This document shows, piece after piece, positions 985-20,453 of a stretch of 64,000 nucleotides of DNA. The translations under genes were made by a program, and so were the position numbers. Under the pieces are notes generated by a model, which worked only from the letters and a program-made list of their open reading frames with translations, did no database searches and was not told where the DNA came from. Location: the sequence record OK428535.1; one strand, 5' to 3'. Source of the stretch: Escherichia phage vB_EcoM_Lh1B. Position 1 is the stretch's first letter. Each line of letters opens with the position of its first letter.

Positions 985-1560
985 ATGAACTTGTATCGCA
1001 TCGGGTTTTACCGGAACGAGGTACCAGAATCGGTTTTGGTTGTCTTAGCCGAAAACGAGGAGCAGGCCAAATCCTTCTGGCCGGTTAGCGCAGAGCGTAC
1101 AGCGGTTGCGTGCTGCTACGACGGTCCAGTTGCCGCAACGGATGTCGCTGCAGGCGTAGTCCTGAAGATGGGCCGATGGGAAGATTACTCCCATCCCGGT
1201 TTGGAGTTTGTTTCCGAACCTGCCAGACATTCCTGGGAATTTCCCTCAGGCAACACCGAGACGTATTTCGGATTTCAGGTTAAACAACCTTCGACGCTCA
1301 AACTGTACCTGGTGTACAGCGACGCCGCTACCGAAGACTACGTCGATTCCGGAATCATCGTCGGGGCAACAACCCCTGCTGCGGCATTCGCACATTGGGA
1401 CGGTGATAAACCCGGAATCGTTTCGGTCTGTGAGCTACCACTTGAAGCCGGTTTGGTTACGAACATCAAGTGTGAGCAAGGCCAGGAGCTGACTTGGATC
1501 CGCCAGGATTACCTGACGGAAACGACATTCGAGTACACACCGAGGAAGGTGACCCAATGA
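985..1560 (+). CDS. hypothetical protein
   Basis: 191-aa ORF, ATG 8 nt after GGAGA; N-terminal ~40 aa resemble the N-terminus of ORF 2283..2525 (MNLY..., ...VAAPTEQA...). Confidence 0.5.
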   Translation: MNLYRIGFYRNEVPESVLVVLAENEEQAKSFWPVSAERTAVACCYDGPVAATDVAAGVVLKMGRWEDYSHPGLEFVSEPARHSWEFPSGNTETYFGFQVKQPSTLKLYLVYSDAATEDYVDSGIIVGATTPAAAFAHWDGDKPGIVSVCELPLEAGLVTNIKCEQGQELTWIRQDYLTETTFEYTPRKVTQ

Positions 1561-2048
1561 CCACGATAGCGTTCGATGGAAAAGTCTTAGCTGCTGACGG
1601 CCAGTTAACCCGTGGGTCGAATATCTGCAACCTGAATACCCAGAAGTTATTCGTCTGTCCTCCTGACGAGGAGTGGTGGATTACCGGTGAACGAATTGTG
1701 GTGTTCGGGGTAAGCGGCGACATCACAGGACAATTGGCCCTGCTGGAAACGGTCCGCTTGAGACCCGGCTACAAGGGGTTAACACAAAGCTCGCAGTTAC
1801 CTGCGAAGATGGATTTTACTTTCCTGATGCTTTTGGCCTCAGGAAAAGCGATAGTCGGTGGGAAGCGTGAAGACGACGTGTCGTTGTGGTGGAGTGAAGC
1901 CACACCACCTCTGGCAACCGGAAGCGGTTACGAGTATGCGTTGGGTGCGATGAAGATGGGCGCGAATGCGGTTCGTGCTGTTGAGATTGCGTCCGAATGC
2001 GATATCTACACCGGTGGTGAGATTAGCACTTACGAACTACGGAGGTGA
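1557..2048 (+). CDS. hypothetical protein
   Basis: ATG overlaps upstream stop (ATGA), GAGGAAGG upstream; 164 aa (MTTIAFDG...). Confidence 0.45.
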   Translation: MTTIAFDGKVLAADGQLTRGSNICNLNTQKLFVCPPDEEWWITGERIVVFGVSGDITGQLALLETVRLRPGYKGLTQSSQLPAKMDFTFLMLLASGKAIVGGKREDDVSLWWSEATPPLATGSGYEYALGAMKMGANAVRAVEIASECDIYTGGEISTYELRR

Positions 2049-2140
2049 ATCATGCGGGAGTCAGAAGCACGCAAGCTTGACCCCATCAATCGCCTGCGAT
2101 AACGGGGTAGCGCATCCGTATAAACACGTTAAAGAATTCT

Positions 2141-2216
2141 AGGAAAGTGACGCAATTGGTAGCGTACCGGTCTCCAAAACCGGCTGTTTAGAGTTCGAGT
2201 CTCTACTTTCCTGCCA
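2141..2216 (+). tRNA. tRNA-Trp (anticodon CCA), 3' CCA encoded
   Basis: Hand-folded cloverleaf: 7-bp acceptor AGGAAAG/CTTTCCT, D-stem ACGC/GCGT, anticodon stem CCGGT/ACCGG with loop CTCCAAA, T-arm TAGAG-TTCGAGT-CTCTA, discriminator G then CCA. Confidence 0.85.
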
Positions 2217-2282
2217 CATTTAGCCAACAAGGCCATGATTCAAAGCAGAATGACACCGAATGTCTAACTGCGGAGAATAATC

Positions 2283-2525
2283 ATGAACTTGTATTTGCTA
2301 GAACGAACTGACGATATCGGGTATGATGAATTTGATTCCATAATCGTGGCGGCTCCTACGGAGCAAGCTGCGTGTGCAATTCCTCCCGACTGTGGTCATT
2401 GGATGGACTGCCGCTGGTTACCGAAAGAGCGCTGGGATGAAGGGCTTACCCTGACCGTTACTCTTATCGGTACTACGCACTATCCTGCTGGGACCGTCGT
2501 TCATGAATCGTTCAATGCTGGCTAA
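2283..2525 (+). CDS. hypothetical protein
   Basis: 80-aa ORF, ATG 8 nt after GGAGA; N-terminus resembles ORF 985..1560. Confidence 0.45.
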   Translation: MNLYLLERTDDIGYDEFDSIIVAAPTEQAACAIPPDCGHWMDCRWLPKERWDEGLTLTVTLIGTTHYPAGTVVHESFNAG

Positions 2526-3300
2526 ACAGTGGGCTTCGGCCCACTAACCCTATTCGAGCCGTGATACTTACTCAGATTGTGCGGGTTGATGTCCCGCATG
2601 AGCCGGTAGCAGCTCAGACCTACGGTAGACCAATAAATCCGTAGCAGCCAGGTACACAAAGCACCAGGTCGCTTGTACAGGATGCTGGGTATCTGACCGG
2701 TCATAACCTCATTCGATACGAGACACGTTTATGCATGAAATACTCCAGTACATCAGGATGTTGATTTCCAACGTCCGGTTCTGGGTATTCAATCATGTTT
2801 GGTTTACAGGCGATGGGTTTTCCCGCAAGGGCCCCACTTACAGACTGGCGTCTCCACGACAACCGTCCCTAGGGGACAGGCAAGCACCGGCCCATTAAGC
2901 CGCCACGCTACGCCTGTAAATCCACAATCTGATAACCGAATGGGATTGAGTTCCCAGTGTTAGGGTGACTATGTGTCACCGTAGGCGCGGTACCTCATAC
3001 GGCCGGTACGCCACGAATGTACGTGATAGCGGGTGGTGCTTGGAGACGCTAAGACCTGACCTTGCGGCCAGGCTCAGAAGAAGAAGTCCATCACCCGCAT
3101 TCAGAAATGAATTTAGGTTAATTATTGGAAGTGATGAAATCGTTTACGTGATAACTTAGTAGTATGCAACGAACAATACCAGAGTGACTTTACGAGGTTA
3201 CTGTGGTATATGTCGGTGCTCCGGGCAACGTGTTGCCGTAGATAAGCCCGAGGGAGCTGAGTGCACTAACACACACCGGGATGCACCGGCACCTTACAAT

Positions 3301-3370
3301 GGCTTTGTAGCTCAGGTAGGTAGAGCAACCTCTTCGAGGAAGGTCGCCGGTTCGAGTCCGGTCAAAGCAA
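3301..3370 (+). tRNA. tRNA-like element, non-canonical (possible pseudo-tRNA)
   Basis: Canonical D-arm GCTC-AGGTAGGTA-GAGC and T-arm GCCGG-TTCGAGT-CCGGT, 6-bp acceptor; the segment between them is too short for a standard anticodon arm plus variable loop. Confidence 0.4.
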
Positions 3371-3371
3371 G

Positions 3372-3447
3372 AGCAGCGAAGTTAGAGGAATTAACACCCG
3401 ACTCATAATCGGATATTTCGACGGTTCGAATCCGTGCCGTTTGCTCG
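3372..3447 (+). tRNA. tRNA-like fragment with Met-type anticodon loop (CTCATAA)
   Basis: Stem-loop CCGA-CTCATAA-TCGG and T-arm ACGG-TTCGAAT-CCGT are visible, but I could not close an acceptor stem. Confidence 0.25.
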
Positions 3448-3828
3448 CCCCATTTGTGTTATCCTTATCCCGAAGGCATTCGAAATAAGACGCGTATCCA
3501 CACACGGGTCAAGGGTAACACGAACCACTTCCGCGGTCACCGTGTCCATTGCCGCCTACCTGCATGGGCTGTCCTCCGACACGGTGACTTCGGGCCAACT
3601 TACAGGCCAGGGCCGTTTGGGTTTTTCTTACGCATCCATCCAGAGCCACCTCGCGCCCTAGTCTGTTACCCCTTTTCTGTTCCTGGTTTGCCAACTAAAT
3701 CAATTAAGCCTGGTGCGTTGCCCTGGGAACAGAAAAACTTATTCGGTTACACACCGAACCCACCCACGAGGGATATGTCGTGGACTACCAATAGAAGCAG
3801 CAATAGTAGAAGTAAGAAGGAAAGCAAC

Positions 3829-4650
3829 ATGTTTACAGTTAAACGTGTAATTGATGGTGACCGCATTATTACCGAACATGAAAAAGTTCGTATCGGTGAC
3901 CGTAAGTCTCGTGTATTCCGCGAGGCGTTAAAGATGCTCGAGAACGAGCGCTTCGACATCGTTGTCGATGATGAAAAGTTAGCCCTTAATCCGGGGTTAA
4001 AACGCGTTGCCCCTGATGTGGCTGATCCGAACACCATGCATTTGTCTGACTACTGCAGCTGGTCGCACAGATTATATAAAAGTCAGGTTTATGCACACAC
4101 GTATTTGCGGCAGCTTTTCCCCAACCTTATTATCCCCGATTTGGAAACGGTCGAGGTGTTTAACTGCAACGCACGCGAGTTTATTAGCTACGTGCTAGAT
4201 AATAAGGGCAATGCTATCTTGGTATTGGACACAAATTCCCGCATACCTGATGCTGTGGCTAGCATACGTGGTGAAATCATCGGTTACGGTACTCCCCCAG
4301 AGAAATTAGGCTGGTACAAACCATCTCCTGATAGCGACATGGCGATCATTGTCTACACTCAGGAAGAACTGCAACAAGTCGAATTAGAGCCTGGTCCATC
4401 TATCGAGTTCACTGATGTCCAGGAGCAGTCGCAGTGGATTAACGGTGAGTCTGTTGTTACTGTTTTAAAAGGCGCTCGCCCTGGCGACCGGTCAGTCGAT
4501 GAACTGATTGGCGCAATGTGCATCGAAGAAGAATCTGGATACGATCCTGATAACCAGATCAGTACCGGTGCGTTGTACGAACTGTTTTATAAAGGCGACG
4601 AAGTCTACGTGGTTAACTCTCACGGTAAGACTACCGACGTCCTTCGCTGA
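3829..4650 (+). CDS. hypothetical protein
   Basis: ATG at 3829 with AAGGAA 8 nt upstream; the track ORF 3454..4650 extends 5' over the tRNA-like region and is probably not translated there. Confidence 0.5.
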   Translation: MFTVKRVIDGDRIITEHEKVRIGDRKSRVFREALKMLENERFDIVVDDEKLALNPGLKRVAPDVADPNTMHLSDYCSWSHRLYKSQVYAHTYLRQLFPNLIIPDLETVEVFNCNAREFISYVLDNKGNAILVLDTNSRIPDAVASIRGEIIGYGTPPEKLGWYKPSPDSDMAIIVYTQEELQQVELEPGPSIEFTDVQEQSQWINGESVVTVLKGARPGDRSVDELIGAMCIEEESGYDPDNQISTGALYELFYKGDEVYVVNSHGKTTDVLR

Positions 4651-18732: not shown

Positions 18733-20250
18733 ATTGACAGAATGAGAAAGGTACCAAAATTCTACGGAATATCCGGCCGGTTGGTTAGTCAGGATAACTA
18801 TTTGTCCGATTTGCAAATAGAAGCTGCTGCCAAAGGTATTAAACCACCCACTATTATTAACGATGTCGCCGTTAACGGGGATGCGATCGAGGTTGCTGAA
18901 CTTATCGATCGCATGGTACAGAACAGAATCGTTGACGAAGAACTGAACTCTGCACCGATTTGTAGTTTGGATTGTCCGGCACCGATCGCGCATCGTTACA
19001 ATCTCGGTTGTAAGTGTCCGACGTGTGGCTATGTTGTAACTGAACATCGAATTGAATCCGATGTCTGGTTACGTGCACCTGATGAAATGGGTAACTTCGT
19101 CAACCCACGATTCTGGGCAATGTTCAATGCTTTCTTTAATAGCAAGTTGAAGAAGTTTGAACGTAACAAGGTCACTATCGAACGCGGTAATGACTTGATG
19201 ATGTGGATGATTGACCCGTATTACCGTATAGAAGAACCAGACGGTAAACGCGCACATGCTGTGAAACGTGTATTGGAAGAACATGGTTTCGTTCGTGGCT
19301 TGCGCAATCTGGTTGATAACCACGTTAGTATCTTTAACATCCTTACCACGCCAGAAGCCTGGAAGGAAATCTTCGCACCTAATCGGCATAACGCCGCTGA
19401 AGGTGAACGCTTACGTTTACAATGGAAGGAGCTATTCGAAACGCAACGTCACGCATTCTTTCCAAGACATTTACCGCTAATCTCCTCTAAACTTATCGTT
19501 ACTGAGGAAGGTCGTCGTGGTGTCATGGTAGACCCAGTGTTCACGGGTGCTATTGACGCGGTGAAAAATATCGCGTTGCTCTATACGCGGCGTAAAGCGA
19601 TCGAACCACGTTTTCTGATTAGTCGTGCTTTGAAGGCGAACCGTCAGCTAACGTACTTCCACATGGACTTCCGTCGTGAGTCTATGGAAGGTAAACCGGG
19701 TGACTATCGTGCGAAATTGGGTTCTACCCATATCCCGTTCGGTGGTCGTGCAACCATCTCACCTATCTCAGAACCACACGATGCCTGGAAGTTAAAAGCA
19801 CCGTGGCGTTGGATGGTTGGGTTGATGTCGACCCACATCGAGAACAAACTGCTACGACGGGGTTATTCGTCGCGGCAATGTGAGCGTATCGTTGCAAAAG
19901 CGGCAATGCAGTATGACCCGCTTGTAGACGAAATCTTTAAAGAACTGATTCGTGAATCCCCAGGCGGTCTTGGGATCATGGTCATACCGTTACGTAACCC
20001 AACGCTGGTACAGTTGTCTATTCAAACGCTGTACATCGATGAAGTTGTTACCGATGTTAACCAGTGTTCGCTGCGTATCTCTGACCGTGTGATCAAGATG
20101 GCTAACGGTTCGAAAAGAGCCCCATCGGACGGGAAACCTCTGATGCGTATTCTCCTGAAATGCTGGGAAACCCTAAAGCGTATCTACCAGAAATGGGGAC
20201 GAAAGTCTGAAACAACAGATACGATGGCCTACGCTAAACAATACTGCTAA
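18724..20250 (+). CDS. multisubunit RNA polymerase beta-prime-like subunit, N-terminal fragment
   Basis: Zinc-ribbon CSLDC...CKCPTCGYVVT (cf. beta-prime CxC...CxxCGVEVT); ELIRESP and RNPTLVQLSIQT match beta-prime EVIREHP / RAPTLHRLGIQA. Confidence 0.65.
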   Translation: MAPIDRMRKVPKFYGISGRLVSQDNYLSDLQIEAAAKGIKPPTIINDVAVNGDAIEVAELIDRMVQNRIVDEELNSAPICSLDCPAPIAHRYNLGCKCPTCGYVVTEHRIESDVWLRAPDEMGNFVNPRFWAMFNAFFNSKLKKFERNKVTIERGNDLMMWMIDPYYRIEEPDGKRAHAVKRVLEEHGFVRGLRNLVDNHVSIFNILTTPEAWKEIFAPNRHNAAEGERLRLQWKELFETQRHAFFPRHLPLISSKLIVTEEGRRGVMVDPVFTGAIDAVKNIALLYTRRKAIEPRFLISRALKANRQLTYFHMDFRRESMEGKPGDYRAKLGSTHIPFGGRATISPISEPHDAWKLKAPWRWMVGLMSTHIENKLLRRGYSSRQCERIVAKAAMQYDPLVDEIFKELIRESPGGLGIMVIPLRNPTLVQLSIQTLYIDEVVTDVNQCSLRISDRVIKMANGSKRAPSDGKPLMRILLKCWETLKRIYQKWGRKSETTDTMAYAKQYC

Positions 20251-20453
20251 CGGTTGTGATAATGGGTAATCAGCAGCGAAGCCTCGTGAGAGGAACGTTC
20301 AACGACTATCGCTGAAATGCGAGTAGGGGTCCCAGTGGACTTCGAAGTGGGAGAACACCTAAGGCGATAGCTATGGTGAAGATATAGTCTGTGCCTTATC
20401 GAGAGATAAGGAGGGTGTCTTAGCACACCTGCTGTATACGGAAACGGTATACG

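What the first reader, a model, noticed from the sequence alone, without database searches (positions are those of the whole stretch)
2049..3828. tRNA / structured-RNA island with one canonical tRNA-Trp and two non-canonical tRNA-like elements
tRNA-Trp (2141..2216) folds canonically with encoded CCA. Two adjacent elements at 3301..3447 have good D- or T-arms but a compressed anticodon region or no acceptor stem, so they are degenerate tRNAs, tRNA-like regulatory RNAs or carry assembly indels. The surrounding ~1.2 kb has no convincing ORF but has a perfect 11-bp inverted repeat (3536..3546 with 3578..3588) and a second 7-9-bp one (3677..3686 with 3722..3732).
Basis: seen in the sequence. Interest (0 to 1): 0.5.

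Follow-up and report, generated by a model that had tools for sequence, protein, structure and literature searches.

The report
Reduced phage tRNA island with tRNA mimic
This stretch of an SPN3US-like giant Salmonella phage holds one working tRNA, a conserved tRNA-shaped RNA that has no usable anticodon, a decaying tRNA, and several conserved folded RNA elements that genome annotations miss or mislabel.

Summary
The window comes from an SPN3US-like (Seoulvirus) jumbo phage. tRNA-Trp(CCA) at 2141-2216 is canonical.

Element 1 (3301-3370) passes the Rfam tRNA threshold but has a 3-nt "anticodon" loop. It belongs to a conserved family that sits directly 5' of tRNA(CAU) in three phage genera. In that family every acceptor pair (2-7:66-71) and three T-stem pairs show compensatory changes. 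Position 1:72 is a G×A mismatch in 11 of 11 sequences, and the "anticodon arm" is a hairpin of variable length. I read it as a maintained, non-decoding tRNA mimic.

Element 2 (3372-3446) is the local ortholog of tRNA(CAU). It has a bulged acceptor stem and a 1-nt insertion (G3436) found in none of 31 related records, so it is decaying.

Both inverted repeats are conserved hairpins with co-varying stems.
- a real 80-codon gene;
- a conserved 55-codon ORF (2731-2898) embedded in a ~530-nt RNA with strong covariation and no Rfam match.

Sister phages carry 7-10 tRNAs at this site, so this is a reduced tRNA island. Functions are inferred. Interest is moderate: a new variant of a known kind.

The parts
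2141..2216 (+). Canonical tRNA-Trp (anticodon CCA) with encoded 3' CCA
   Evidence: ARAGORN. Rfam RF00005 63.6 bits. Annotated as tRNA-Trp in relatives.
2283..2525 (+). 80-codon protein gene of unknown function
   Evidence: phrog_5444 at E 1.1e-36 over the full length. Annotated CDS in relatives. About 90% amino-acid identity to the pEa29 copy.
2529..2544 (+). UUCG-capped hairpin (GUGGGC-UUCG-GCCCAC) just after the stop codon. Possibly a 3'-end or terminator hairpin.
   Evidence: Read from the sequence. Identical in SPAsTU and pEa29. No U tract follows, and the terminator scan did not call it.
2577..2702 (+). 5' structured domain of the ORF55 RNA: a hairpin followed by a multi-helix junction, with conserved unpaired ACACAAAGCAC and ACC..UAA.U
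   Evidence: RNAalifold on 9 lineages gives 34 pairs, 93.5% canonical cells, and 21 pairs with changes on both sides. No Rfam match.
2731..2898 (+). Conserved 55-codon ORF (MHEILQYIRMLISNVRFWVFNHVWFTGDGFSRKG...QAPAH), not annotated in most Seoulvirus records
   Evidence: phrog_26199 (E 1e-4; the pSal04 homolog scores E 3e-45). Intact at 54-69 aa and ending at the same stop in 12 of 12 lineages. Substitutions in the N-terminal half fall 135/77/143 by codon position, and indels there are in frame. Only 6 protein clusters match in 5.8 billion sequences.
2799..3102 (+). 3' structured domain of the ORF55 RNA. It overlaps the ORF's 3' half and contains the invariant GGUGCUUGGAGRCGCUAAGACC and GGCUCAGAAGAAGAAGUCCAUC.
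   Evidence: RNAalifold on alignment A4 gives 63 pairs, 21 with changes on both sides. The motif occurs only in SPN3US-like phage contigs. No Rfam match.
3105..3170 (+). AT-rich spacer. Inferred promoter region for the tRNA-like unit.
   Evidence: GC falls to about 0.45. Conserved within Seoulvirus. No sigma-70 match, so this is inference only.
3175..3295 (+). Leader conserved within Seoulvirus, upstream of the tRNA-like elements
   Evidence: Aligns with SPAsTU and pEa29. In pEa29 it directly precedes tRNA-Tyr.
3296..3302 (+). ACAATGG junction. Most relatives carry about 257 extra bases here, flanked by this 7-nt direct repeat.
   Evidence: BLAST mapping with a 7-nt overlap. Sequence of the extra segment.
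3301..3370 (+). Element 1: anticodon-less tRNA-like RNA. G1×A72 mismatch, 6-bp acceptor stem, D arm, CCUC-UUC-GAGG arm, AGGUC variable loop, T arm, A73. No encoded CCA.
   Evidence: Rfam tRNA 40.9 bits, with the alignment showing the 3-nt loop. The minimum-energy fold is a cloverleaf. Family covariation on A3: 9 of 12 pairs changed on both sides, reached by 0 of 500 shuffles.
3372..3446 (+). Element 2: degenerate ortholog of tRNA(CAU) (Met/Ile2). Loop CUCAUAA, a bulged U in the 3' acceptor strand, and a private extra G at 3436 in the T stem.
   Evidence: Rfam 21.5 bits, below the gathering score of 29. Orthologs score 30.6-45.6 bits. Alignments. The G is absent from 31 records. The fold is disrupted compared with SPN3US.
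3453..3524 (+). Hairpin A: a long stem (UUUGUGUUAUCCUU/AAGGGUAACACGAA) enclosing the conserved CCCGAAGRCAUUC
   Evidence: z = -3.9. The stem co-varies (GUGUUA/UAACAC against GCAUUG/CAGUGC), and the same fold appears in 6 orthologs.
3530..3594 (+).
   Evidence: z = -5.1. Stem sequences differ entirely in SPAsTU, ChrisDB and pSal04 but remain paired. Single copy in the window.
3673..3736 (+). Conserved loop GCCAACU...GCCUGGUGYGUUG.
   Evidence: z = -3.6. The stem reads UUUUCUGUUCC in the window, UUUUCCGGGAUGG in pEa29 and UUUCUGGGGCAG in SPAsTU.
3742..3783 (+). Hairpins D (3742-3758) and E (3764-3783, loop GGGAWAWG), just upstream of the ribosome-binding site of the next gene
   Evidence: Stems co-vary: CCACGA/UCGUGG against CCGCGA/UCGCGG against CCGUGU/ACACGG.
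3829..4650 (+). 273-codon gene that bounds the island in all relatives
   Evidence: phrog_17697 at E 2e-107. Syntenic. The open frame upstream (3454-3828) is not coding, because close relatives differ there by 1-nt indels.

Best explanation
Window 2049-3828 is the reduced tRNA island of an SPN3US-like (Seoulvirus) jumbo phage.

What the data show:
1. tRNA-Trp(CCA) is a normal tRNA.
2. Element 1 is a member of a conserved family of tRNA-shaped RNAs that cannot decode. Acceptor stem, T arm, an invariant G1×A72 mismatch and A73 are maintained, while the 'anticodon arm' is simply a hairpin. It has a 3-nt loop here, 4-6-nt loops in other lineages, and a 39-nt extended arm in SPAsTU. The element always lies 1-3 nt upstream of tRNA(CAU).
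3. Element 2 is that tRNA(CAU), decaying in the SPN3US lineage.

What I infer:
- The island is transcribed as tRNA-operon-like precursors.
- Host RNase P and 3'-end trimming, followed by CCA addition, cut at each tRNA-shaped module.
- tRNA-Trp then decodes normally.
- Element 1 is released as a stable RNA of about 70 nt. It presents the acceptor/T 'top half' to tRNA-binding factors, either as a processing or punctuation module or as a tRNA mimic or decoy, without taking part in decoding.
For: Identity and context:
- The region is 93-98% identical to more than 30 Seoulvirus genomes.
- The syntenic site in SPAsTU, Machinavirus and Erskinevirus holds 7-10 tRNAs that end with tRNA(CAU)-tRNA-Asn, upstream of the same 273-aa gene.

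Element 1:
- Rfam tRNA 40.9 bits with a 3-nt loop, and a cloverleaf minimum-energy fold.
- There are 11 distinct orthologs whose acceptor sequences differ (GGCUUUG, GGCUCCG, GGCCUCU, GGUCUUU, GGCUACU, GGUUUCU, GACCUCU).
- All of pairs 2-7:66-71 are 100% paired and each shows changes on both sides. Three of five T-stem pairs do the same. Position 1:72 is unpaired in 11 of 11.
- The covariation score is 0.70, against 0.30 in shuffles (0 of 500 reach it) and at most 0.14 when partners are slid.
- Within the SPN3US group its variants are all structure-neutral: loop bases, a G·U pair, a T-loop base.

Element 2:
- It aligns to tRNA-Met/Ile2(CAU) of sister genera, which score 41-46 bits.
- Some lineages show compensatory changes: C6-G67 to U6-A67, and T stem ACGG to CGGG or CAGG.
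- EC001, phage 1252 and this window carry disruptive alleles.

Strand and RNA level:
- G·U pairs are frequent on the + strand only.

Flanking structures:
- Covariation is documented.
- In the Erskinevirus phage phiEaH2 and the uncultivated viral contig L017, the ORF55 RNA ends within about 15 nt of a tRNA 5' end. This fits co-transcription and an RNase P-defined end.

Precedents:
- Plant mitochondrial t-elements are tRNA-like processing signals (PMC1920247).
- The T4 RNAs RNAC and RNAD are 'of yet unknown functions' (PMC9697503).
Against: - No expression, processing or aminoacylation data exist for any Seoulvirus; literature searches found none. Every functional step is therefore inferred.
- No promoter or terminator was detected by consensus scans, although these phages use their own RNA polymerases.
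- ARAGORN calls the pSal-SNUABM-04 ortholog tRNA-Pro(CGG), using a 7-nt loop CCCGGCG. A decoding role in that one lineage cannot be fully excluded.
- Thermodynamic z-scores of elements 1 and 2 alone are unremarkable (-1.05 and -1.32).
- The covariation shuffle test does not correct for phylogeny, and the sample is 11 sequences from about 5 lineages.
- A processing-signal role and a decoy role cannot be told apart with sequence data.
Confidence: 0.6

Rival explanations
1. Both elements are dead tRNA pseudogenes left over from the shrinking of a larger tRNA array. They have no function of their own, and conservation reflects only recent common ancestry.
For: - Sister phages have full arrays at this site.
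- Element 2 carries disruptive alleles in the window, EC001 and phage 1252.
- HNH homing endonuclease genes and indels show that the island turns over rapidly.
- ARAGORN rejects both elements.
Against: - Element 1 is anticodon-less in all three genera.
- Its acceptor stem has been completely rewritten while staying 100% paired: 6 of 6 pairs changed on both sides, with 0 of 500 shuffles reaching the observed score. Neutral decay would break pairs.
- The G1×A72 mismatch and A73 are invariant.
- Within the SPN3US group, element 1 variants are all structure-neutral, while element 2 accumulates damage.
Confidence: 0.2
2. The two elements are standard tRNAs spoiled by sequencing or assembly indels in this window.
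For: G3436 is present in none of 31 related records. It lowers the Rfam score of element 2 from about 30.6 to 21.5 bits.
Against: - The 3-nt loop of element 1 and the acceptor bulge of element 2 are present in every independently sequenced relative.
- Without the extra G, element 2 is still only marginal (30.6 bits against a gathering score of 29), and ARAGORN does not call it.
Confidence: 0.03
3. Element 1 is a decoding tRNA with an unusual anticodon arm. Annotators have read it as Asp in Proteus phage 7, ARAGORN reads it as Pro(CGG) in pSal-SNUABM-04, and a 5+7+5 reading here gives anticodon CGA.
For: - Annotated as tRNA-Asp in MT679221.
- ARAGORN calls tRNA-Pro(cgg) in L007.
- In the window, a 17-nt reading ACCUC-UUCGAGG-AAGGU has U33 and G37.
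Against: - The 17-nt reading leaves a 1-nt variable loop and destroys the standard AGGUC variable loop.
- The loop varies (UUC, UUU, AUC) within the SPN3US group.
- Orthologs have GUAA tetraloops, 6-nt loops or a 39-nt insertion with a GAAA cap.
- The L007 loop lacks U33 and a purine at position 37.
- The inferred 'identity' changes with each tool and each genome.
Confidence: 0.05
4. The region is protein-coding: either the minus-strand CDS annotated over the tRNA-like elements (SPN3US_0003 / VOG9117), or an N-terminal extension of the 273-aa gene through the open frame 3454-3828.
For: - A 78-aa CDS is annotated on the - strand in several records.
- The window has an uninterrupted frame 3454-4650.
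- The phrog_17697 profile is 71 residues longer at its N terminus.
Against: - The minus-strand frame is broken in this window by G3436, giving ORFs 3362-3505 and 3403-3549, and by the tRNA-Asn insertion in MET_P1.
- It overlaps sequence that scores as tRNA.
- The 3454-3828 frame is broken by 1-nt indels among close relatives, and the substitution pattern there is compensatory in stems.
Confidence: 0.02
5. The inverted repeats and other hairpins act at the DNA level, for example as protein-binding palindromes or as origin or packaging signals, rather than as RNA structures.
For: - The island lies near the conventional start of the genome records.
- No transcription data exist.
- Perfect 11-bp inverted repeats could be binding sites.
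Against: - Stems keep pairing through G·U pairs that would be A·C mismatches on the other strand.
- Stem sequences are free to change, while loop sequences are conserved. A palindromic protein site would show the opposite pattern.
- The elements are contiguous with tRNAs on the same strand.
Confidence: 0.1

Closest known systems
tRNA arrays of sister jumbo phages (Machinavirus pSal-SNUABM-04, pEa_SNUABM_10 and ChrisDB; Erskinevirus phiEaH2; Seoulvirus SPAsTU)
   Same: Same genomic site, upstream of the same 273-aa gene. Same terminal unit of element 1, tRNA(CAU) and, in those phages, tRNA-Asn. Same downstream hairpins A and B.
   Different: The window has lost Tyr, Gln, Asp, Ile, His, Glu, Ser and Asn. 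Its tRNA(CAU) is degenerate. Only tRNA-Trp remains canonical.
Phage T4 stable RNAs RNAC and RNAD
   Same: Small non-coding RNAs encoded beside a phage tRNA cluster (the location is from my own knowledge) and still 'of yet unknown functions' (PMC9697503).
   Different: No sequence relationship was tested. Element 1 is a near-complete cloverleaf that passes the Rfam tRNA threshold. The T4 RNAs are longer and only partly tRNA-like (own knowledge).
tRNA-like processing modules: plant mitochondrial t-elements (PMC1920247); also mascRNA of MALAT1 and the vtRNAs of murine gammaherpesvirus 68 (own knowledge)
   Same: Non-canonical cloverleaves with a conserved T arm (GGTTCRANYCC) that RNase P or RNase Z recognises to define neighbouring RNA ends. 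They are released as small stable RNAs, sometimes with non-encoded C or CCA added.
   Different: Those are eukaryotic or organellar. No processing data exist here. Element 1 has an invariant G1×A72 mismatch that is not described for them.
tRNA-like domains that lack an anticodon: the tmRNA tRNA-like domain and bacterial Y-RNA-like YrlA
   Same: Acceptor and T-arm mimicry without decoding.
   Different: ARAGORN finds no tmRNA. YrlA matches reach only 23-26 bits against a gathering score of 69, and they fall on ordinary tRNAs. There is no G3·U70 alanine identity pair; position 3:70 is C-G or U-A.
Large structured phage RNAs found near tRNA genes (GOLLD, ROOL; own knowledge), as a comparison for the ORF55 RNA
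   Same: Hundreds of nucleotides long, heavily co-varying, phage-borne and next to tRNA genes.
   Different: No Rfam match even at E up to 10. It contains a conserved small ORF. It is restricted to one phage clade.

Membership tests
Canonical tRNA (Rfam RF00005): tRNA-Trp 2141-2216 | Cloverleaf with a 7-nt anticodon loop, detected by both ARAGORN and Rfam above threshold | tested here: met
   ARAGORN calls Trp(cca). Rfam 63.6 bits against a gathering score of 29.
Canonical tRNA: element 1 (3301-3370) | Rfam covariance-model score at or above the gathering threshold | tested here: met
   40.9 bits against 29.
Canonical tRNA: element 1 | Seven-nucleotide anticodon loop with U33 and a purine at 37, on a 5-bp stem | tested here: not met
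   The stem CCUC/GAGG closes a 3-nt loop. Orthologs have loops of 3-6 nt or a 39-nt insertion. ARAGORN makes no call.
Canonical tRNA: element 1 | Seven fully paired acceptor base pairs | tested here: not met
   Position 1:72 is G×A in 11 of 11 orthologs. Pairs 2-7 are always paired.
Canonical tRNA: element 1 | T arm with 5 bp and a GTTCRANYC-type loop; D arm | tested here: met
   GCCGG-UUCGAGU-CCGGU, and a D arm GCUC/GAGC. The T stem is 100% paired across the family. Machinavirus and Erskinevirus copies lose the D arm.
Canonical tRNA: element 2 (3372-3446) | Rfam score at or above the gathering threshold | tested here: not met
   21.5 bits, below 29. Relatives without G3436 score 30.6-31.9 bits, and sister genera score 41-46 bits.
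Canonical tRNA: element 2 | Anticodon loop and stem | tested here: met
   CCGA-CUCAUAA-UCGG with anticodon CAU.
Canonical tRNA: element 2 | Uninterrupted acceptor and T stems | tested here: not met
   A bulged U in the 3' acceptor strand in all of the SPN3US group, and an extra G3436 in the T stem of this window only.
tmRNA | tRNA-like ends plus a tag reading frame, detectable by ARAGORN | tested here: not met
   ARAGORN reports no tmRNA in the 64-kb window.
Group I intron (considered for the ORF-containing structured RNA 2577-3102) | Match to RF00028, and flanking exons that form one gene | tested here: not met
   No RF00028 hit in 1900-4000 even at E up to 10, whereas a real group I intron at 20090-20411 scores 69.4 bits. 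The flanks differ between genera: a gene, a ParB-like gene or a tRNA.
GOLLD, ROOL and other curated large RNAs and riboswitches (for 2577-3102) | Match to any of the 4227 Rfam models | tested here: not met
   The best unrelated hit is an L17 leader at 22.2 bits against a gathering score of 34.9, E 3.3.
RNase P substrate or t-element-like processing module (elements 1 and 2) | Cleavage by RNase P at position +1, and post-transcriptional CCA addition | not testable with these tools
   This needs an in vitro cleavage assay or RNA end mapping. Only the structural prerequisites (acceptor and T-arm coaxial stack) were shown.

The most novel reading that the evidence does not exclude
SPN3US-like nucleus-forming jumbo phages encode a set of RNA genes that has not been described, clustered in the tRNA island:
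- an anticodon-less tRNA mimic with an invariant G1×A72 end. It could act on host tRNA-binding machinery or on tRNA-targeting defences rather than in decoding;
- a ~530-nt, highly co-varying RNA that carries a 55-codon ORF. This could be a new large structured RNA, a ribonucleoprotein, or a riboswitch-like regulator.

Neither has a counterpart in Rfam.
Probability: 0.3. Interest if true: 0.7.

Novelty: new variant of a known kind. Interest (0 to 1): 0.55.

Why it matters
Annotation. Pipelines label these elements inconsistently: tRNA-Asp, tRNA-Ile, tRNA-OTHER, tRNA-Pro, a minus-strand 'hypothetical protein', or nothing at all. As a result, tRNA counts and codon-usage arguments for this phage group are unreliable.

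Biology. A tRNA-shaped RNA that cannot decode, yet has been kept by compensatory evolution across three genera, points to a non-translational use of tRNA mimicry in phages. It could be a processing signal, a decoy for tRNA-binding or tRNA-cleaving host factors, or something else. It can be tested directly in SPN3US, which is a genetically tractable model.

New RNA candidates. The ORF55 RNA and hairpins A-E are solid candidates for new RNA families, found in phages whose transcription takes place inside a proteinaceous nucleus.

Tried and rejected
- Rfam at a permissive E-value over 1900-4000 found nothing beyond the three tRNA hits.
- Group I intron for 2577-3102. Some R/S-like sequence resemblance (GGAGACGCUAAGA, AAGAAGAAGUCC) was noted by eye against the true intron at 20090. 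There is no covariance-model hit, and the flanks are not conserved exons.
- RNase P RNA, tmRNA and 6S RNA for the same region. The conserved blocks do not match their signature sequences (my own comparison from memory), and ARAGORN and Rfam are negative.
- N-terminal extension of the 273-aa gene through the open frame 3454-3828. Rejected because of 1-nt indels in close relatives.
- The minus-strand CDS SPN3US_0003. Rejected because its frame is broken in this window and in MET_P1.
- Sigma-70 promoters and intrinsic terminators. Nothing above the shuffle expectation on the + strand.
- Long-range pairing between 2657-2669 and the hairpin C loop 3708-3720 (12 of 13 complementary). It was found only through a 2-mismatch search that gave 4 hits against 2.55 expected, and it has no covariation support in Erskinevirus. 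Treated as chance.
- Dispersed copies of the hairpin loop motifs or of ACAATGG in the 64-kb window. None beyond chance.
- Wider distribution of the ORF55 RNA. Metagenome, genome and viral scans returned only SPN3US-like contigs plus random hits. A protein profile search returned 6 clusters, all from the same clade.
- Literature. No paper was found that describes these elements or a Seoulvirus transcriptome.
Full report
**What the window is**

Positions 1500-4500 are 93-98% identical to more than 30 Seoulvirus (SPN3US-like) jumbo phage genomes from Salmonella, Escherichia and Proteus. Window coordinates match those of Escherichia phage EC001. The finding lies between an HslV-like peptidase gene (phrog_1040) and a conserved 273-codon gene at 3829-4650 (phrog_17697).

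**Checking the observation**

- ARAGORN finds one tRNA in the whole window, tRNA-Trp(CCA) at 2141-2216 with encoded CCA. Rfam gives it 63.6 bits.
- Rfam also scores 3301-3370 (element 1) at 40.9 bits, above the tRNA gathering score of 29. At a permissive threshold it scores 3373-3445 (element 2) at 21.5 bits, below it.
- The covariance-model alignment and the minimum-energy fold agree on element 1. It has a 6-bp acceptor stem with a G1×A72 mismatch, a normal D arm, a 4-bp stem CCUC/GAGG closing a 3-nt loop, the common AGGUC variable loop and a normal T arm.
- Element 2 has an intact CUCAUAA loop (anticodon CAU).
- Inverted repeat 3531-3546/3578-3593 is confirmed, with a perfect 11-bp core at 3536-3546/3578-3588.
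- Their folds are far more stable than shuffles, with z = -5.1 and -3.6.

**Context in relatives**

The same site in SPAsTU (a divergent Seoulvirus), in Machinavirus (pSal-SNUABM-04, pEa_SNUABM_10, pEa_SNUABM_43, ChrisDB) and in Erskinevirus (phiEaH2) carries 7-10 tRNA genes. The set is drawn from Tyr, Gln, Asp, Ile, His, Glu, Ser and Gly, and always ends with tRNA(CAU)-tRNA-Asn in front of the same 273-aa gene. The window is therefore a reduced tRNA island.

The island is mosaic:
- Most SPN3US-group genomes carry an extra ~257 bp exactly at 3296-3302, flanked by a 7-nt direct repeat ACAATGG.
- MET_P1_082_240 keeps a tRNA-Asn.
- Phage 1252 and pEa29 carry HNH endonuclease genes inside the island (Pfam HNH_3).

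**Element 1**

A counterpart lies directly 5' of tRNA(CAU), 1-3 nt away, in every lineage examined. The acceptor sequences are all different: GGCUUUG, GGCUCCG, GGCUCCA, GGCCUCU, GACCUCU, GGUCUUU, GGCUACU and GGUUUCU.

On an alignment of 11 distinct sequences (A3):
- pairs 2-7:66-71 are paired in every cell, and all six show changes on both sides;
- three of five T-stem pairs also show changes on both sides;
- position 1:72 is G×A in 11 of 11, and A73 is invariant;
- the covariation score is 0.70, against 0.30 for shuffles (0 of 500 reach it) and at most 0.14 for slid registers.

The 'anticodon arm' is not conserved in length or sequence. It has a 3-nt loop that varies (UUC, UUU, AUC) within the SPN3US group, a GUAA tetraloop in phiEaH2, 5-6-nt loops elsewhere, and a 39-nt extension capped by GAAA in SPAsTU. 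The D arm is replaced by other hairpins in several lineages.

Selection has therefore maintained the acceptor/T 'top half' and the odd 1:72 end, but not a decoding loop. This argues against neutral decay and against an assembly artefact. ARAGORN does call the pSal-SNUABM-04 copy tRNA-Pro(CGG). That loop lacks U33 and a purine at position 37, and no other ortholog supports the reading.

**Element 2**

It aligns to the tRNA-Met/Ile2(CAU) of sister genera, which score 41-46 bits. In the SPN3US group it has a bulged nucleotide in the 3' acceptor strand and scores about 30-32 bits.

Some lineages show compensatory changes: C6-G67 becomes U6-A67, and the T stem ACGG/CCGU becomes CGGG/CCCG or CAGG/CCUG. 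Others carry disruptive alleles, namely EC001, phage 1252 and this window.

The window's extra G at 3436 is absent from all 31 related records and rearranges the T arm in the predicted fold. It may be a private mutation or a sequencing error. I read element 2 as a tRNA in the process of being lost.

**Downstream of the elements (3453-3828)**

Independent folds of six orthologs give the same series of hairpins. The alignment shows stems rewritten while loops are kept.

| Hairpin | Window coordinates | Covariation in stem | Conserved loop |
|---|---|---|---|
| A | 3453-3524 | GUGUUA/UAACAC against GCAUUG/CAGUGC | CCCGAAGRCAUUC |
| B (first inverted repeat) | 3530-3594 | GUCACCGUGUC against GCCACACCCC against CACCACACC | ACCUGCAU |
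| C (second inverted repeat) | 3673-3736 | window, pEa29 and SPAsTU all differ | GCCUGGUGYGUUG |
| D | 3742-3758 | co-varies | none noted |
| E | 3764-3783 | co-varies | GGGAWAWG |

Hairpins D and E lie just upstream of the ribosome-binding site of the next gene.

G·U pairs on the + strand indicate RNA rather than DNA structure. The long open frame 3454-3828 in front of ATG 3829 is not coding, because close relatives differ there by 1-nt indels.

**Upstream (2526-3300)**

In fact 2283-2525 is a real gene (phrog_5444, E 1e-36).

Positions 2574-3102 are conserved across all three genera at 62-76% nucleotide identity. Inside this stretch, a 55-codon ORF at 2731-2898 has these properties:
- it is open in 12 of 12 lineages (54-69 aa) and always ends at the same stop;
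- it has in-frame indels;
- substitutions in its N-terminal half fall 135/77/143 by codon position, which is a coding-like pattern;
- its C-terminal half shows no such periodicity, at 94/93/102;
- it matches phrog_26199 and only six protein clusters among 5.8 billion.

Structured RNA lies around and over the ORF:
- A 5' domain (2577-2702) has 34 predicted pairs, 93.5% canonical, and 21 with changes on both sides.
- A 3' domain (2799-3102) has 63 predicted pairs, 21 with changes on both sides. It includes two segments that are invariant in all lineages.

No Rfam family matches. Pattern scans of viral, metagenomic and bacterial collections recover it only from SPN3US-like phages. In phiEaH2 and in the uncultivated contig L017, its 3' end abuts a tRNA, which suggests co-transcription with the tRNAs. 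Its function is unknown. I considered a group I intron, RNase P RNA, tmRNA and GOLLD/ROOL and rejected each. The grounds for each are given under Tried and rejected.

**How it most likely works**

The structures and their conservation are shown. The mechanism below is inferred.
1. The island is transcribed as tRNA-operon-like precursors.
2. RNase P and 3' trimming with CCA addition act on each tRNA-shaped module.
3. tRNA-Trp decodes UGG.
4. Element 1 is released as a small RNA that cannot decode but exposes a tRNA-like top half.

Element 1 could serve as a processing or punctuation module, like plant mitochondrial t-elements (PMC1920247). It could equally be a mimic or decoy for tRNA-binding factors. 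Sequence data cannot separate these. Precedent for phage small RNAs still described as of unknown function comes from T4 RNAC and RNAD (PMC9697503). No literature on these Seoulvirus elements was found.

**Verdict**

It is a new variant of a known kind: tRNA-like RNAs and structured RNAs in phage tRNA islands. It carries a moderately interesting conserved tRNA mimic and an undescribed large structured RNA with a micro-ORF.

Noticed in passing
window 20090-20411 (+): A group I catalytic intron (Rfam RF00028, 69.4 bits, full-length match with canonical R and S elements), far outside the finding. The interrupted gene was not examined.
   Followed up: partly
window 2574-3102 (+): A ~530-nt RNA conserved across Seoulvirus, Machinavirus and Erskinevirus. 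It shows heavy covariation (34 + 63 predicted pairs, 42 with changes on both sides), carries an embedded 55-codon ORF (2731-2898) that most Seoulvirus records do not annotate, and has no Rfam match. The invariant segment contains a (GAA)n run that is one unit longer in SPFM4 and in L014.
   Followed up: yes
L004 2311-2392; L006 2376-2457; L007 2231-2305. Absent from the window at 3296-3302.: The ~257-bp segment that the window lacks begins with another cloverleaf-shaped element. It has an 8-bp acceptor-like stem, three hairpins with a GGAA tetraloop where the T loop would be, and a 3' single-stranded CCA. It is conserved between genera (z about -2 to -2.6).
   Followed up: partly
L005 2075-2614 (Salmonella phage 1252); L009 2748-3284 (Erwinia phage pEa_SNUABM_29): HNH homing-endonuclease genes (Pfam HNH_3) inserted inside the tRNA island of relatives. 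They are a likely driver of the island's mosaic gain and loss of tRNAs.
   Followed up: partly
window 3312-3549 (-), corresponding to SPN3US_0003 / VOG9117 in relatives: A 78-aa 'hypothetical protein' annotated on the minus strand in several Seoulvirus records lies on top of the two tRNA-like elements. Its frame is broken in this window and in MET_P1_082_240, so it is probably a spurious gene call.
   Followed up: yes
L007 about 1940-2170 (pSal-SNUABM-04); also L009 4060-4180: Further unannotated tRNA-like sequences with T-arm motifs, one of them with a UUCG-capped 'anticodon' arm. They lie between tRNA-Ser and element 1 in Machinavirus. A similar one follows tRNA-Asn in pEa29.
   Followed up: no
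window 2657-2669 and 3708-3720: The conserved unpaired CAAAGCACCAGGU of the ORF55 RNA 5' domain is complementary (12 of 13) to the conserved loop GCCUGGUGCGUUG of hairpin C. It is not statistically significant and is not supported in Erskinevirus, so I treated it as chance.
   Followed up: partly
L010 1351-1426; L017 1288-1372 (-): In phiEaH2 and in an uncultivated relative, the ORF55 RNA ends within about 15 nt of a tRNA 5' end (Gly-CCC and Leu-UAA respectively). RNase P cleavage could therefore define its 3' end.
   Followed up: partly
L011 about 2517-2625 (ChrisDB): The ChrisDB counterpart of element 2 (the tRNA(CAU) position) carries a long insertion in the variable-arm region. Neither ARAGORN nor the record's annotation calls it a tRNA.
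   Followed up: no
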